Of a stretch of DNA of 48,853 bases, positions 7,863 through 11,223 are shown piece after piece. The DNA is from Comamonadaceae bacterium (GTDB lineage: Bacteria > Pseudomonadota > Gammaproteobacteria > Burkholderiales > Burkholderiaceae_C). The stretch is taken from the NCBI GenBank assembly GCA_043753505.1, contig JAYUXO010000274.1:1-48853 (forward strand), read 5' to 3'. Numbering within the stretch: the first letter of the stretch is position 1; the number at the start of each line of letters is the position of its first letter. Position numbers and translations under genes: made by a program. The notes under the pieces were generated by a model that was not told where the DNA came from, searched no databases, and saw nothing but the letters and a program-made list of their open reading frames with translations.

Positions 7863-8837
7863 TCATTGCCGTCCCGGCACACGGCCCATAGCACTCTCGG
7901 GGGTCAGGGCTTCAGGTGAATCGACCAGGCGACGACGGCTCAGGGTGGTGACTTTCAGGCCGTCACGCTGCAGCACAGAACTCTCCATCACCATGTTTTG
8001 CTCCAGCCGAAGCCGCCCCTGCACCTCAAAAAACCGGCTGGCCACGCTGTGTTGACCTTCGACAAACTGGCCGGAGAATTCGGGCACCAACTTGCCCGCG
8101 TCGGCCAGCGTCGAAAAATGCGTACGCCCGCGCGCCACAACGATACGTTGGGCACCCGACATGTCCAGCCCGGGTACGCTGGCGTAAAGCGCTTCGGCGC
8201 TGGCTGTGTTCAGGTTCAGGCCCGTTCGCACTGGAAGCACCGTCACAAATGGTTTTAGCGCCGCGACGCTGGTCTCGCTCAAACCCAGCCACGTCAGTTG
8301 CTCCACCCGCTGCGGCACCAGATAGGCTTGCGATTTCGACAGGTTTTCCGGGCTGTTATCCAACGCAAATCGCAGGTTCTCCGCCATCTGACCCAGCTCA
8401 ACAGGAGGCAGGTTGAGTTGTTCAAAGAGCTTGGTAAAAGCTTTCAATGCGGGCTCAGACACCTTGTTGGCCTCTACCAGGTTCGTGACGTTCAGGCGCG
8501 ATTGCAAATCGAAAATCTGGCCCGACAAAAAAGCATCTTCACTATCAGACGTGTTGCTGCGATCCGCCGCCAGGAAGGTGGACATACGGGCCTCTTCCAG
8601 CGGCAACGCCCAGGGCTCCGACAGGTGGTCGGCACCCCCCGAGCGCGCGTCTTCGCGCAGAATGAGCCGCGCCCAGTCCAACGCGCCGGTGAGTACCCAA
8701 CCCGACTGCACGCGCGAGCGCTCTGCGGCTTCCACGGCCACGCTGCGCCATTGCTGCCACAGCGCGGCCGCCGCCAGGCTGGCCACCAGCGTGACGGTGA
8801 GCATGGCCAGCAACAGCGCTGCGCCACGCTGGGGCAT
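7863..8837 (-). CDS. gspK: type II secretion minor pseudopilin GspK
   Basis: MPQRGAALLLAMLTVTLVASLAAA N-terminus and a GspK-type body. ATG at 8837 lies at the inner end of repeat C1. The ORF is open upstream to ATG 8972. Confidence 0.85.
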   Translation of the reverse strand: MPQRGAALLLAMLTVTLVASLAAAALWQQWRSVAVEAAERSRVQSGWVLTGALDWARLILREDARSGGADHLSEPWALPLEEARMSTFLAADRSNTSDSEDAFLSGQIFDLQSRLNVTNLVEANKVSEPALKAFTKLFEQLNLPPVELGQMAENLRFALDNSPENLSKSQAYLVPQRVEQLTWLGLSETSVAALKPFVTVLPVRTGLNLNTASAEALYASVPGLDMSGAQRIVVARGRTHFSTLADAGKLVPEFSGQFVEGQHSVASRFFEVQGRLRLEQNMVMESSVLQRDGLKVTTLSRRRLVDSPEALTPESAMGRVPGRQ

Positions 8838-8974
8838 GACGCGCTTCGTGCATGACCTCGCTGCGCCTGAATGACTGATGACGCAGGCACCCGGTACCAG
8901 CACGTCATGGCGTGTAACGCCGTCATACACGCGCAGCGGTGCCATGGCGCGCCACGCCGTCACCCGCCTCATGA
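8836..8974. repeat. family C ATGAC/GTCAT-rich palindromic element, copy C1 (gspJ/gspK junction)
   Basis: About 135 bp, alignable with 9701-9831 and 10620-10760. It runs from the gspJ stop (TCATGA at 8969-8974) to the gspK ATG. Confidence 0.75.
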
Positions 8975-9766
8975 CTTACCCCCGCCCAGCGTGGGCCTGG
9001 CCCAGTCACGGGTAATGTTGCCGCCAAAGGTACCCGCTGGCAAACGCAGCACCAACCGCACACCATCGGGAATCACCACGGCGGGCGGTGGGGGGGCGCT
9101 GATAACCGGCGCATTGCCGCCAATCACAAATCCCGATGGCGGGGGCGGTTGTTCGGTGACTACGCTGCTCGATTGCGGGTTGGTCCAAGCGTCAGCGCGA
9201 AAGTAAAACAGCTGCCACTCGGTCACCGGCAGCACGGCCACCTCCAGGCGCTTGGACTCTTCATTCGGATTTTGCGCCCACAACCCAGCGCGCAGCCAGG
9301 ATTCTTCAAGCTGGCTTCGGTTAGCAATTGGAGGCGACTGCCAACGCAGCCATTGACCCGCACCGTCAGTGCTGCTGCCATTGTTGTTTCGCAGTGTCCA
9401 TGCCACCACGCGCAGGCCGCTGTCAATACCCAGGGCCGAATCAGCGGCCGTGCGAATCATGCGAAACACCTGGCCGTTCCAGTCCAGTGTGGTGGCTGCC
9501 CCATAGCTGGGCATTTGAACCAGCGCGTCCAGGTCGGTGCCCCATTGCGCCAATCCAGCCTGCAACGTAAGCACATCGTCAGCCCGGGCCTGCGTTTGCG
9601 TTTGTGCGCGACTCATGCCGTCCAGACCACGCCAGCTCATGACCGCCAGGATGGCCATGACGGATAGTGCCACCAGCACTTCGATGAGCGTGAAGCCTCC
9701 TATGACGCGCTTTGCGCATGATTTCGCTGCCCGTCGATGATGGATGAGTGGCACGGCTTGTCTCAT
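8969..9766 (-). CDS. gspJ: type II secretion minor pseudopilin GspJ
   Basis: Prepilin motif IGG/FTLIEVLVAL. The nearest in-frame starts are GTG 9751 and ATG 9766, both inside repeat C2. ATG 9829 overlaps the gspI stop (ATGA). Confidence 0.8.
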   Translation of the reverse strand: MRQAVPLIHHRRAAKSCAKRVIGGFTLIEVLVALSVMAILAVMSWRGLDGMSRAQTQTQARADDVLTLQAGLAQWGTDLDALVQMPSYGAATTLDWNGQVFRMIRTAADSALGIDSGLRVVAWTLRNNNGSSTDGAGQWLRWQSPPIANRSQLEESWLRAGLWAQNPNEESKRLEVAVLPVTEWQLFYFRADAWTNPQSSSVVTEQPPPPSGFVIGGNAPVISAPPPPAVVIPDGVRLVLRLPAGTFGGNITRDWARPTLGGGKS

Positions 9767-9831
9767 CAAGTCATGGCGTGCAGCGCCGTCATACACGTGC
9801 AGCGAGGTCATTGCGCGCCGCGCAGTCATCA
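9701..9831. repeat. family C element, copy C2 (gspI/gspJ junction)
   Basis: Termini are atgactgcgc... and ...gcgcgtcat on the gene strand, an inverted repeat. The core cgtgtatgacggcg.t.cacgccatgac is shared with C1. Confidence 0.75.
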
Positions 9832-10206
9832 GTGCCGCCCCACCACAGTGCTCAGCCGCAAAATCGGCGACGCGCCATCCAGCACTTGTGCGTCAACCCG
9901 ACGAAAGTTGGGGTTGGGCGTGGGCTGCACAGACACCGCCACCGTGAGGTTGCGACCGGCCTGCTCACATGCAACGGTACTGTCGCCCACACCCGGCATT
10001 TGTCTGGACAGCCGGGTTTTGACAAGTTCGTTTTCAGCACACACGTGCGCGAACAGCAAGTCCGATTGGCGCTGTGCGTTACGCGTTAAGGCCGATGTGG
10101 CTTGCAACCCCGCCGTCAAAGCCACTGCGACGATTCCCAGAGCCACCAGGATCTCGATAAGCGTGAAGCCGCGGTGGGTTCCACGCGTAACTTGTAGGCC
10201 TGTCAT
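9829..10206 (-). CDS. gspI: type II secretion minor pseudopilin GspI
   Basis: 125 aa. Leader MTGLQVTRGTHRG then FTLIEILVAL. ATGA overlap with the gspH stop. Confidence 0.85.
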   Translation of the reverse strand: MTGLQVTRGTHRGFTLIEILVALGIVAVALTAGLQATSALTRNAQRQSDLLFAHVCAENELVKTRLSRQMPGVGDSTVACEQAGRNLTVAVSVQPTPNPNFRRVDAQVLDGASPILRLSTVVGRH

Positions 10207-10721
10207 TGCTCTGGCGTGACCACCGAGAAAGGCCGCAGTCCGTCTGTGGCAATGCGCAGGGTATGAGGTGGATTGCCAGCGCTGAGCAACAAGCTCTGCG
10301 GGCCAATGATGGGCTCAGGCCCGAGTGTCAAGGTGGTGCTTCCCACCACCTGCGTGCCCAGTGAAAGCCAACGCGTAGGCAGAGCATCATTGTGCAAACC
10401 CACGAATGCAAAACCTTCTTCAGTGGCGACCCATCGCACCGGCACGCCGATGGCCCGTGACTGCAAGCGCGCCGCCTCCAGCAGCGCGGTCAAACGTTGG
10501 GCTTCGCGCTCCACCTGCGTGTGAGCTGGGTCGCGCATCGCAAAACTTACACCGGCTGACCCGATGGCAATGATAGTGATGACCACCAGCAACTCCAGCA
10601 GGGTGAAGCCCCTGGATGGAATGACGCGATTCGCGCATGACTTCGCAGCGCGTCGATGACTGATGGCCAAAGTTCTCCGGTCATGACGCGCAGCGTTGTC
10701 ATCTACGCAAATCGGGGTCAT
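10203..10721 (-). CDS. gspH: type II secretion minor pseudopilin GspH
   Basis: Prepilin motif SRG/FTLLELLVV. The in-frame starts available (ATG 10721, or a TTG near 10670) both lie inside repeat C3. Confidence 0.75.
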   Translation of the reverse strand: MTPICVDDNAARHDRRTLAISHRRAAKSCANRVIPSRGFTLLELLVVITIIAIGSAGVSFAMRDPAHTQVEREAQRLTALLEAARLQSRAIGVPVRWVATEEGFAFVGLHNDALPTRWLSLGTQVVGSTTLTLGPEPIIGPQSLLLSAGNPPHTLRIATDGLRPFSVVTPEQ

Positions 10722-10760
10722 CGAGTCCGAGCGCCGGTCATCGCGGCAGCAGGCGTCATT
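10620..10760. repeat. family C element, copy C3 (gspG/gspH junction)
   Basis: On the gene strand there are four ATGAC at about 17-20 nt spacing, a central GTCATGAC, then three more GTCAT. Termini are aatgacgc... and ...gcgtcatt. Confidence 0.75.
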
Positions 10761-11223
10761 GCCAGCTACCCACATCGGCATTTTTGCCCTCGCCGCCTGC
10801 CTGACCGTCAGCACCGAAAGACATCACATCAATTTCACCCTTCACACCTGGATTCAAGTACTGGTACGTGCGGCCCCAGGGATCATTGGGCAGCTTTTCC
10901 ACATAGGGCTTCCAGTTAGGTGGTACCGGTGAGGTGGCGGGCTTGGTCAGCAAAGCCTGAAGGCCCTGCTCGGATGTGGGGTAGCGCTGGTTATCCAGCT
11001 TGTACAGCTTCAAGGCCTGCACCACATTGTTGATGTCGGTTTTAGCGGCAGTCACACGCGCATCGTCTGCCCGATCCAACACGTTGGGCACGATTAACGC
11101 CGCCAGCACGCCGATGATGACCAGCACCACCATCAACTCAATCAAGGTAAAGCCCCGGGAGATTCTGGAACTTTTTGAAGCCAGAAAATCCGCAGGTACG
11201 AAAGGGATTAGGGTGTATTTCAT
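10756..11223 (-). CDS. gspG: type II secretion major pseudopilin GspG
   Basis: 155 aa. SRG/FTLIELMVVLVIIGVLAALIVP and the GspG body (DPWGRTYQY, GADGQAGGEG). Confidence 0.93.
   Translation of the reverse strand: MKYTLIPFVPADFLASKSSRISRGFTLIELMVVLVIIGVLAALIVPNVLDRADDARVTAAKTDINNVVQALKLYKLDNQRYPTSEQGLQALLTKPATSPVPPNWKPYVEKLPNDPWGRTYQYLNPGVKGEIDVMSFGADGQAGGEGKNADVGSWQ

What the first reader, a model, noticed from the sequence alone, without database searches (positions are those of the whole stretch)
8836..10760. About 135-bp ATGAC/GTCAT-rich palindromic element (family C) at three consecutive pseudopilin gene junctions of the gsp operon
Three homologous segments fill the G/H, I/J and J/K junctions exactly: 8836-8974, 9701-9831 and 10620-10760. 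The H/I junction is a plain ATGA overlap.

Each element runs from the stop codon of the upstream gene to the mature N-terminus or start of the next gene.

On the gene strand, C3 carries four ATGAC at about 17-20 nt spacing, a central GTCATGAC, then three more GTCAT. The left arm aligns with the reverse complement of the right arm (AATGACGC..., GC.ATGAC, TCGATGAC). The whole element could therefore fold into a long imperfect hairpin in the polycistronic mRNA.

In C1, a GTCATG hexamer flanks both ends, which resembles a target-site duplication.

I found no other copies in the window. The family therefore looks locus-specific here. It could be a regulatory or processing module for pseudopilin stoichiometry, or a MITE with a preference for ATGA junctions.
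Basis: partly seen in the sequence, partly recalled or inferred. Interest (0 to 1): 0.65.

Follow-up and report, generated by a model that had tools for sequence, protein, structure and literature searches.

The report
Selfish palindromic repeats in pseudopilin leaders
Three copies of a genome-wide, REP-like mobile palindromic repeat sit in the starts of three neighbouring type II secretion pseudopilin genes, where they are most likely translated as extra-long leader peptides that are later cut off; this is an ordinary kind of selfish DNA in an unusual, tolerant spot.

Summary
Three homologous segments of about 115-140 nt lie at the gspG/H, gspI/J and gspJ/K junctions on the minus strand. They are rich in ATGAC/GTCAT and fold into long imperfect hairpins (z -3.0 to -3.8).

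They are not locus-specific. The same family has about 55 loci in this 3.3-Mb MAG and many more in two genomes of the same genus. True copies also occur in a few other Comamonadaceae.

Each element is a REPIN-like doublet. Each of its two inverted arms reads [GTCAT-N2-GTCAT], then a GC-rich mini-hairpin, then [GTCAT-N2-3-GTCAT]. The mini-hairpin stems covary (58 distinct hairpins in 78 arms).

I found no target-site duplication. The single RAYT gene is flanked by a different REP family.

Both same-genus genomes have empty gsp junctions with normal 7-14 aa leaders. A sister species shares two of the insertions.

The inserted sequence is not conserved as protein. Even so, its frame stays open, its indels are multiples of three, and gspJ has no canonical start codon closer than 24 codons to the mature end here, and none closer than 33 in the sister species. 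The repeats are therefore most likely translated as 39-50 aa leaders that prepilin peptidase removes.

Other lineages carry unrelated REP insertions at the same place. A regulatory role could not be tested. This is a new member of a known kind.

The parts
10620..10760 (-). Element C3 at the gspG/gspH junction. It is a REPIN-like doublet, a net +118 nt compared with genomes G001 and G002.
   Evidence: Alignment of the three copies. Empty sites in G001 and G002. Junction lengths. Fold of -61.4 kcal/mol, z -3.77. Family HMM hit at E 2.9e-23.
9701..9831 (-). Element C2 at the gspI/gspJ junction, a net +114 nt (38 codons). It is in frame with gspJ from the ancestral ATG at 9829-9827.
   Evidence: The sister-species contig L174 also carries it, at 80% identity with a 3-nt indel.
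8836..8974 (-). Element C1 at the gspJ/gspK junction, a net +117 nt (39 codons) against G002. It is in frame with gspK from the ancestral ATG at 8972-8970.
   Evidence: L174 carries it with an 18-nt indel and the frame still open.
10756..11223 (-). gspG, the major pseudopilin (155 aa, with a native 24-aa leader).
   Evidence: Pfam T2SSG at 4.8e-42 and N_methyl at residues 22-44.
10203..10721 (-). gspH. The first in-frame ATG after the gspG stop is at 10721-10719, giving a 39-aa leader made of element sequence. Gene callers choose an earlier ATG inside gspG, giving 192 aa.
   Evidence: ORF list. N_methyl at residues 36-58 of the 172-aa form. Called genes in conspecific contigs.
10718..10759 (-). 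A 13-codon mini-ORF inside C3. Its ATG overlaps the gspG stop as ATGA, and its TGA overlaps the in-frame gspH ATG as ATGA. This could act as a translational coupling relay, which is an inference.
   Evidence: Read directly from the sequence.
9829..10206 (-). gspI (125 aa, 13-aa leader, no insertion). It has an ATGA overlap with gspH and a TGATG overlap with gspJ.
   Evidence: Pfam T2SSI at 2.9e-23. Sequence.
8969..9829 (-). gspJ (286 aa). The leader is 45 aa, compared with 7 aa in G001 and G002.
   Evidence: N_methyl at residues 44-64. Homologues are typically 228-240 aa. Empty sites.
7863..8972 (-). gspK (369 aa). The leader is 50 aa from the ancestral ATG. It would be 5 aa if the derived in-frame ATG at 8837-8835 is used instead.
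   Evidence: Pfam T2SSK and T2SSK_1st. Sequence. Relatives have leaders of 11 and 14 aa.

Best explanation
The three segments are copies of a dispersed, non-autonomous, REP/REPIN-like palindromic repeat family of a Rhodoferax-like Comamonadaceae lineage.

Each copy is a doublet of two inverted arms. Each arm is a GC-rich mini-hairpin bracketed by pairs of GTCAT (ATGAC on the other strand).

The copies entered the stop/start junctions of gspH, gspJ and gspK after this lineage split from the two sequenced congeners and before it split from a sister species. That places them in the leader-coding 5' ends of these genes.

Only copies that left the downstream reading frame open survived. The repeats are now translated as part of abnormally long class III signal-peptide leaders (39, 45 and up to 50 aa). 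These leaders stay in the cytoplasm and are cut off after the conserved Gly by prepilin peptidase, so the mature pseudopilins are unchanged.

The ATGAC motif supplies both ATG and TGA. This keeps ATGA-type translational coupling intact and lets ribosomes melt the hairpin.

Shown: family membership, dispersal, empty sites, frame conservation, and the absence of amino-acid conservation. Inferred: translation of the inserts, cleavage of the long leaders, and near-neutrality of the insertions.
For: Dispersal:
- nhmmer finds about 55 loci in the genome.
- The arm pattern occurs 11, 45 and 25 times in G000, G001 and G002. It occurs 0 times in 38 other genomes (37 other genera) sampled, and 0 times in the reversed-pattern controls.
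- True doublets are present in Hydrogenophaga, Ottowia and other MAGs.

Anatomy:
- 78 arms carry 58 distinct mini-hairpins. The mean best stem is 4.55 bp against 3.13 bp in shuffles.

Insertion:
- G001 and G002 have empty sites at all three junctions, with leaders of 7-14 aa.
- Six other loci are polymorphic between the three genomes.
- All conspecific contigs shown from independent assemblies (13 distinct loci; 23 contigs carry the identical GspI protein) are 99.85-100% identical across the region and carry the elements.
- Sister-species contig L174 has C2 and C1.

Translated but not selected as protein (differences between G000 and L174 by codon position 1/2/3):
- gspI: 6/7/39 of 125 codons.
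- Mature gspJ: 11/8/72 of 237 codons.
- C2: 7/5/12 of 44 codons.
- C1: 9/9/8 of 32 codons.
- The indels are 3 and 18 nt, and both frames stay open.
- gspJ has no in-frame ATG, GTG or TTG closer than 24 codons to the mature end in G000, and none closer than 33 codons in L174. Mature gspJ is nevertheless under strong purifying selection.
- Only 23 of 252 strand/frame combinations (9%) of the 42 other copies are open. All three gsp copies are open in the gene's frame.

Generality:
- In 51 related gsp loci, 10 of 10 I/J gaps of 60 nt or more, and 8 of 8 such H/I gaps, are open over their whole length.
- Several of these are an unrelated REP that translates as MAPTLV..ALPPEGA.

Supporting facts:
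- A prepilin peptidase gene is present.
- Leaders stay cytoplasmic and are cleaved after Gly (PMC4471445).
Against:
- Leaders of 39-50 aa exceed the 6-26 aa range given in the literature (PMC4471445). Processing by the peptidase is therefore assumed, not shown.
- gspK has a derived in-frame ATG right at the end of the element (8837-8835) that would give a normal 5-aa leader.
- gspH and gspJ have ATT and ATA at the same place, which might act as weak non-canonical starts.
- In gspH the ancestral ATG is out of frame, so its start codon is uncertain.
- Three copies within 2 kb is far more than the genome-wide density of about 1 per 60 kb predicts. All ATGAC/GTCAT motifs of C2 are kept in the sister species. 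Both facts would also fit a selected function or concerted evolution.
- The enzyme that mobilises the family is unknown.
Confidence: 0.75

Rival explanations
1. Co-opted regulator. In the polycistronic gsp mRNA the hairpins set pseudopilin stoichiometry. They could shield the gspG message from 3' exonucleases, act as processing sites, or slow the ribosomes that must melt structures of -55 to -72 kcal/mol. The result would be much GspG and little GspH, GspJ and GspK.
For: - The folds are stable on the gene strand.
- The three copies are clustered at consecutive junctions, and the first lies directly after the major pseudopilin gene.
- The copies are retained and fixed in two species, with all ATGAC/GTCAT motifs of C2 conserved.
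- G/H junctions of 60 nt or more occur in 20 of 51 related loci.
- REP hairpins are known, from my own knowledge of the E. coli mal operon work, to stabilise upstream cistrons.
Against: - The two congeners and most relatives run the same operon with plain overlaps.
- The same family sits at about 50 unrelated places.
- There is no intrinsic terminator or T-run after the hairpins.
- If the hairpin is translated, ribosomes open it.
- No expression data are available.
Confidence: 0.15
2. Genuine functional protein extension. The inserted 38-39 codons would encode a conserved propeptide with a role of its own.
For: The three copies give similar peptides in one frame (..VYDGAARHD..HRRAAKSCAKRVI..). 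The frames are kept open.
Against: - The extension is absent from the congeners.
- In the sister species there is no synonymous bias: 9/9/8 and 7/5/12 differences by codon position, against 11/8/72 in mature gspJ. About 29% of the leader residues differ, against about 5% in the mature part.
- The peptide similarity follows from nucleotide homology with about 50 mostly untranslated copies.
Confidence: 0.02
3. A classical MITE cut down from an insertion sequence. It would be moved by a DDE transposase and leave target-site duplications, with GTCATG as the duplication at C1.
For: The element has long terminal inverted repeats and a small size, is dispersed, and shows presence/absence polymorphism.
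Against: - Both GTCAT motifs that flank C1 pre-exist in the empty site of G002.
- The flanks of 45 copies show no direct repeat.
- The repeat unit is a covarying mini-hairpin, as in REPs, rather than a transposase-binding end.
- No parent insertion sequence was seen. The assembly is fragmented and I made no dedicated search.
Confidence: 0.05
4. One original insertion that spread within the operon by gene conversion or duplication between the paralogous pseudopilin 5' ends, rather than three independent transpositions.
For: - The I/J and J/K copies are each other's nearest relatives (90/115 identical).
- The G/H copy is nearest to the I/J copy.
- Three copies in 2 kb against about 1 per 60 kb genome-wide.
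- All three have the same orientation and the same variant architecture with extra 13-nt hairpin modules.
Against: - Copy C146 elsewhere in the genome is about as close to the G/H copy as the other gsp copies are.
- The upstream flanks (3' ends of gspG, gspI and gspJ) share no homology that could guide conversion.
- Identity between the copies is only 73-78%.
Confidence: 0.35

Closest known systems
REP sequences and REPIN doublets mobilised by RAYT transposases (Pseudomonas, Enterobacteria; PMC3116915, PMC3337134)
   Same: Both have short GC-rich imperfect hairpins next to a conserved short motif, tens to hundreds of copies, and two units in inverted orientation around a spacer that together form a long hairpin. 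Both lack a target-site duplication, are confined to a lineage, are mostly inherited vertically, and usually lie just after genes.
   Different: The only RAYT gene in G000 and G001, and the orthologous one of two PF01797 hits in G002, is flanked by another REP family (ATAGCTGCTTGAGCAGTAT), not by this one; the second G002 hit has neither family in its locus. The conserved motif here is a doubled pentamer (GTCAT-N2-GTCAT) on both sides of the hairpin, not a 5' GTAG-type tetranucleotide. Some copies are translated.
BIMEs (bacterial interspersed mosaic elements of E. coli)
   Same: Both are mosaics of hairpin units and short linker motifs in alternating orientation. Here, variants arise by adding extra 13-nt hairpin modules between ATGAC motifs. 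Both are found between the genes of operons.
   Different: There is no sequence relation. Known BIME functions such as IHF or gyrase binding were not tested here. This comparison rests on my own knowledge.
Rickettsia palindromic elements (RPE; review PMC10969869)
   Same: Both are palindromic repeats of about 100-150 bp that are found in frame inside protein-coding genes and are tolerated at permissive places. Here those places are the pseudopilin leaders and the photolyase interdomain linker.
   Different: The host clade and the sequence differ. Most copies here are extragenic, and most have stop codons in all frames. The RPE peptide is conserved, whereas this one is not.
Correia elements (Neisseria) and ERIC/IRU (Enterobacteria)
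   Same: Both are imperfect palindromes of about 100-150 bp that are co-transcribed inside operons and able to form long RNA hairpins.
   Different: As I recall, Correia elements have TA duplications, an IHF site and RNase III processing. None of these was seen or tested here, and there is no Rfam match.

Membership tests
REP / REPIN-RAYT system | A short GC-rich imperfect palindrome, repeated many times in the genome | tested here: met
   About 55 loci in G000. 78 arms carry 58 distinct, covarying mini-hairpins.
REP / REPIN-RAYT system | Two REP units in inverted orientation around a spacer (the REPIN doublet) | tested here: met
   The family alignment shows left and right arms around a loop of 20-40 nt. 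Paired inverted arm hits in G001 and G002 lie 10-30 nt apart.
REP / REPIN-RAYT system | A cognate RAYT (Y1 transposase, PF01797) gene flanked by the same REP | tested here: not met
   The single PF01797 gene of G000 and of G001, and one of the two PF01797 hits in G002, is flanked by a different repeat (ATAGCTGCTTGAGCAGTAT). The family HMM and the ATGAC-pair scan find nothing nearby. G000 is only 87% complete, so a second RAYT cannot be excluded there.
REP / REPIN-RAYT system | No target-site duplication | tested here: met
   The flanks of 45 copies show no direct repeats. The J/K 'duplication' pre-exists in the empty site.
MITE derived from an insertion sequence | Terminal inverted repeats together with a target-site duplication | tested here: not met
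   Inverted arms are present, but no duplications.
MITE derived from an insertion sequence | A parent insertion sequence with the same ends | not tested
   I made no dedicated search. G000 is in 527 contigs, and the other genomes could not be downloaded whole.
Rickettsia palindromic elements | In-frame insertion into ORFs with a conserved encoded peptide | tested here: inconclusive
   In-frame copies exist in the gsp leaders and in the photolyase linker at C303:3525-3644. The peptide is not conserved, and most copies are closed in all frames.
Any curated RNA family (Rfam 15) | A covariance-model match at or near the gathering score | tested here: not met
   The only hit was a chance-level mir-15_2 match, at 21.5 bits against a gathering score of 80 and E 0.55.
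Type II secretion pseudopilin operon gspG-K | A class III signal peptide (Gly, then a hydrophobic helix with Glu5) and T2SS G, I and K domains in the canonical order | tested here: met
   Pfam gives N_methyl in GspG, GspH, GspI and GspJ, and T2SSG, T2SSI, T2SSK and T2SSK_1st. GspL, GspC and the rest appear in conspecific contigs. Peptidase_A24 is present.

The most novel reading that the evidence does not exclude
Prepilin leader peptides act as recurrent safe harbours for REP-type selfish DNA. Because prepilin peptidase discards the leader, in-frame palindromic repeats can accumulate there. This produces functional pseudopilin precursors with leaders of 39-50 aa here and up to about 60-70 aa in related lineages, well beyond the 6-26 aa regarded as the range. 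It has happened independently with at least two unrelated repeat families in Comamonadaceae type II secretion operons.
Probability: 0.5. Interest if true: 0.55.

Novelty: new member of a known kind. Interest (0 to 1): 0.38.

Why it matters
- The work explains three odd 'long leader' gene calls as selfish-DNA insertions, and it warns annotators that the extended GspH, GspJ and GspK ORFs contain repeat sequence.
- It adds a lineage-restricted REPIN-like family whose units are bracketed by doubled GTCAT pentamers and which has no RAYT gene flanked by its own repeat. That makes it a useful case for asking what else can mobilise such repeats.
- If the inserts are translated, the locus is a natural experiment on how long and how arbitrary a class III signal-peptide leader can be while still being processed.
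- It is also an example outside Rickettsia of palindromic repeats surviving inside genes at permissive sites.

Tried and rejected
- **Rfam scan of the region:** it gave only a chance-level microRNA match.
- **RNAalifold on a MAFFT alignment of 29 copies:** it returned no structure, because indels between modules wreck the alignment. I replaced it with a direct per-arm hairpin analysis against shuffles.
- **Strict inner-arm pattern:** it found 0 copies, so I relaxed the pattern.
- **Scan of genome contigs:** Unrelated GTCATCT heptamer tandem arrays in cyanobacteria, Bacteroidota and Streptomyces contaminated the hits, and only the Comamonadaceae and other Pseudomonadota hits are real.
- **Target-site duplication:** rejected.
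- **RAYT association:** rejected for the genes found.
- **Conserved protein extension:** rejected.
- **Assembly artefact:** rejected. Independent assemblies and a sister species carry the elements.
- **Search for intermediate relatives in metagenome contigs:** it returned only one conspecific contig and relatives at 57% identity or less, so the order of the three insertions is unresolved.
- **Literature:** I found no description of this family, but only four searches were made.
Full report
**Observation.** The gsp genes lie on the minus strand:
- gspG at 10756-11223
- gspH, ending at 10203
- gspI at 9829-10206
- gspJ at 8969-9829
- gspK at 7863-8972

Pfam confirms T2SSG, T2SSI, T2SSK and the N_methyl motif. 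They contain the described runs of ATGAC followed by GTCAT.

On the gene strand they fold into long imperfect hairpins of -72.6, -55.7 and -61.4 kcal/mol. The z-scores are -3.05, -3.10 and -3.77 against dinucleotide shuffles. The H/I junction is a plain ATGA overlap.

**Not locus-specific.** An HMM built from the three copies, then iterated, finds about 55 loci spread over the 527 contigs of this 3.29-Mb, 87%-complete MAG. It finds no further copy in the window. The 12-mer GTCATCTGTCAT occurs 55 times, where about 0.4 is expected.

An arm pattern (GTCATCTGTCAT, N8-24, GTCAT, N2-3, GTCAT) occurs 11 times in this genome. It occurs 45 and 25 times in the two same-genus genomes G001 and G002. It occurs 0 times in 38 other genomes (37 other genera) of the family and order that were sampled, and 0 times for the reversed control pattern.

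A scan of named genomes shows true doublets in a few other Comamonadaceae and other Pseudomonadota:
- an uncultured Hydrogenophaga
- Ottowia beijingensis
- several MAGs

G001 is 'Comamonadaceae bacterium bin27.maxbin.ball.053'.

**Anatomy.** A canonical copy has four parts, in order:
- a left arm: GATGAC-N2-3-ATGAC, a GC-rich mini-hairpin, then GATGAC-N2-ATGAC
- a loop of 20-40 nt
- a right arm that mirrors the left: GTCAT-CT-GTCATC, a mini-hairpin, then GTCAT-N2-3-GTCATC

This is seen.

In 78 arms from three genomes the mini-hairpin takes 58 different sequences, for example CGCC(GCA)GGCG, GCCC(GAA)GGGC and GGCTGC(GCA)GCAGCC. Complementarity is kept throughout. The mean best stem is 4.55 bp against 3.13 bp in shuffles. 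This is the signature of REP units arranged as a REPIN-like doublet.

The gsp copies belong to a variant that carries extra 13-nt hairpin modules between ATGAC motifs (GGCGCTGCACGCC, GCGCAAAGCGC). Copies of that variant also lie elsewhere, at C146, C441, C506, C341 and C239.

The flanks of 45 copies show no direct repeats.

The only PF01797 (RAYT-type) gene of G000 is flanked by a different repeat, ATAGCTGCTTGAGCAGTAT. The same holds for the single hit in G001 and for one of the two PF01797 hits in G002. The ATGAC family is not found next to any of these genes, including the second G002 hit. What mobilises the family is therefore unknown. A pentamer next to a hairpin recalls the way HUH/Y1 enzymes recognise their sites, but that is only an analogy.

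**Insertions.** In G001 and G002 the gsp operon aligns at 78-86% identity. The alignment breaks exactly at the three elements. The junctions there encode ordinary leaders:

| Gene | Leaders in G002 / G001 |
|---|---|
| GspH | MRFAPTGVARG\|FTLLE / MRLVSAASKG\|FTLLE |
| GspJ | MRAPSKG\|FTLIE / MRNRTRG\|FTLIE |
| GspK | MRASRVIPQRG\|AALL / MRRRVGSGVSAQRG\|AALL |

The net gains in this genome are +118, +114 and +117 nt.

Both GTCAT motifs that flank C1 already exist in the empty G002 site, so they are not a duplication made by insertion.

Six further copies elsewhere are present or absent in different combinations among the three genomes. The family has therefore been mobile within the genus.

Every conspecific contig shown carries all three elements wherever it covers the junction. 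These are 13 distinct loci from independent assemblies; 23 contigs in all carry the identical GspI protein. They come from ENA, Logan and glacier-type metagenomes and are 99.85-100% identical to the window.

A sister-species contig, L174, has a GspJ 90% identical to this one. It carries C2 and C1 as well.

**Are the inserts translated?** Several lines point the same way.

First, gspJ and gspK remain in frame with the ancestral, translationally coupled ATG through the whole insert, for 45 and 50 codons. gspH is open from an ATG inside the element, giving 39 codons.

Second, I compared this genome with L174 by codon position:

| Region | Differences at positions 1 / 2 / 3 | Codons |
|---|---|---|
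| gspI | 6 / 7 / 39 | 125 |
| mature gspJ | 11 / 8 / 72 | 237 |
| C2 | 7 / 5 / 12 | 44 |
| C1 | 9 / 9 / 8 | 32 |

The mature parts are under strong purifying selection. The inserts are not conserved as protein. Yet their indels are 3 and 18 nt, and both frames stay open.

Third, gspJ has no in-frame ATG, GTG or TTG closer than 24 codons to the mature end here. In L174 there is none closer than 33 codons. A functional gspJ must therefore be translated through most of the element.

Fourth, only 23 of 252 strand/frame combinations (9%) of the 42 other copies are free of stop codons. All three gsp copies are open in the gene's own frame. If the three events were independent, the chance of this would be about 7e-4.

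Fifth, I examined 51 related gsp loci:
- The I/J gap is 60 nt or more in 10 loci, and all 10 are open over the whole gap.
- The H/I gap is 60 nt or more in 8 loci, and all 8 are open.
- The G/H gap is 60 nt or more in 20 loci, and 15 are open.
- Several I/J expansions are an unrelated REP that reads MAPTLV..ALPPEGA in frame.

A prepilin peptidase gene is present. The literature states that leaders are 6-26 aa, stay in the cytoplasm and are removed after the conserved Gly (PMC4471445).

The most economical reading is that the repeats are translated as leader extensions and discarded. This makes the leader a permissive landing site.

The ATGAC motif itself offers ATG and TGA in neighbouring frames. 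In C3 a 13-codon mini-ORF links the gspG stop to the in-frame gspH ATG by two ATGA overlaps, which I read directly from the sequence.

Genome-wide, 35 of 96 element sides abut the end of a long ORF. In 28 of these the stop codon lies inside the element. 30 of the 35 stops are TGA, against 58% genome-wide (this is a crude ORF-based count).

**Rivals.**
- A regulatory role in mRNA stability, processing or translation rate cannot be excluded and was not testable. Clustering of three copies in 2 kb and the conservation of all ATGAC/GTCAT motifs of C2 in the sister species would fit it. Against it, the congeners do without the elements, and there are no terminator-like T-runs.
- A conserved functional propeptide is rejected.
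- A classical MITE with a target-site duplication is not supported.
- Whether the three copies arose independently or by spread within the operon is open. The I/J and J/K copies are each other's closest relatives (90/115 identical), but the G/H copy is about as close to a copy on another contig.

**Comparison and novelty.** The element works like a REP/REPIN or BIME-type repeat. In its in-frame copies it behaves like the Rickettsia palindromic elements (PMC3116915, PMC3337134, PMC10969869).

It fails one defining REPIN criterion, namely a cognate RAYT gene flanked by the same REP, and it has no Rfam match. I therefore file it as a new member of a known kind.

The mildly new points are its bracket of doubled GTCAT pentamers, the lack of an identified mobilising gene, and the recurrent use of pseudopilin leader regions as landing sites.

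**Limits.**
- There are no expression or protein data.
- The exact insertion boundaries are blurred by about 15% divergence from the nearest empty sites.
- The genome is fragmented and incomplete.
- The ORF-based context counts are approximate.

Noticed in passing
It gives dozens of hits in G001 and G002. This looks like a classical REPIN-RAYT pair.
   Followed up: partly
G000 contig C303:3525-3644 (locus L016:526-645): A copy of the ATGAC family lies in frame inside a photolyase/cryptochrome-like gene, in the linker between the DNA_photolyase and FAD_binding_7 domains. The copy is present in G001 and absent from G002.
   Followed up: partly
G000 contig C65:3242-3386: The frame of a long upstream ORF (no family search was run on it; it looks like an NAD-binding epimerase/dehydratase by eye) runs straight through a family copy. 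This gives a C-terminal extension of about 60 aa that ends 43 nt beyond the element.
   Followed up: no
G000 contig C285:21225-21365: A family copy lies in a gene junction that looks like ddl-ftsQ of the cell-division cluster (my reading of the flanks; no family search was run). The stop TGA of the upstream gene lies about 6 nt before the family-HMM match, in an ATGAC at the element's edge, and a GGAGG ribosome-binding site follows the element.
   Followed up: no
G000 contig C455:7968-8081 (locus L015:2969-3082): A copy shared with G002 sits where G001 has a 4-nt GTGA stop/start overlap between two cistrons. This is a second example of insertion into a translationally coupled junction.
   Followed up: partly
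Loci L194, L195, L212, L218 and L222 (I/J junction); proteins P0011, P0015, P0021 and P0049: Other Comamonadaceae lineages carry an unrelated GC-rich palindromic repeat in frame in the GspJ leader. It translates as MAPTLV..ALPPEGA..GRPG and gives leaders of about 36-60 aa. L220 has a different 191-nt expansion, which folds at -110.6 kcal/mol with z -4.19.
   Followed up: partly
Locus L009 (G009) G/H junction; locus L212 G/H junction: The gspG/gspH gap is 234 nt in G009, with a sequence that translates as ..DPRLRGDDG.. and looks like another common betaproteobacterial REP. In L212 the gap is 601 nt. G/H gaps of 60 nt or more occur in 20 of 51 related loci.
   Followed up: no
G000 contig C503:5791-5823; G001 C14:24509-24541: Short tandem arrays of the heptamer GTCATCT. 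This heptamer is the period of the family's doubled end motif. Similar arrays in unrelated phyla caused false hits in the collection scan.
   Followed up: no
window 11152-11223 (minus strand): GspG has a native 24-aa leader (MKYTLIPFVPADFLASKSSRISRG|FTLIE). It is conserved in G001 and G002 and contains no repeat, so it is already near the upper end of the range given in the literature.
   Followed up: no
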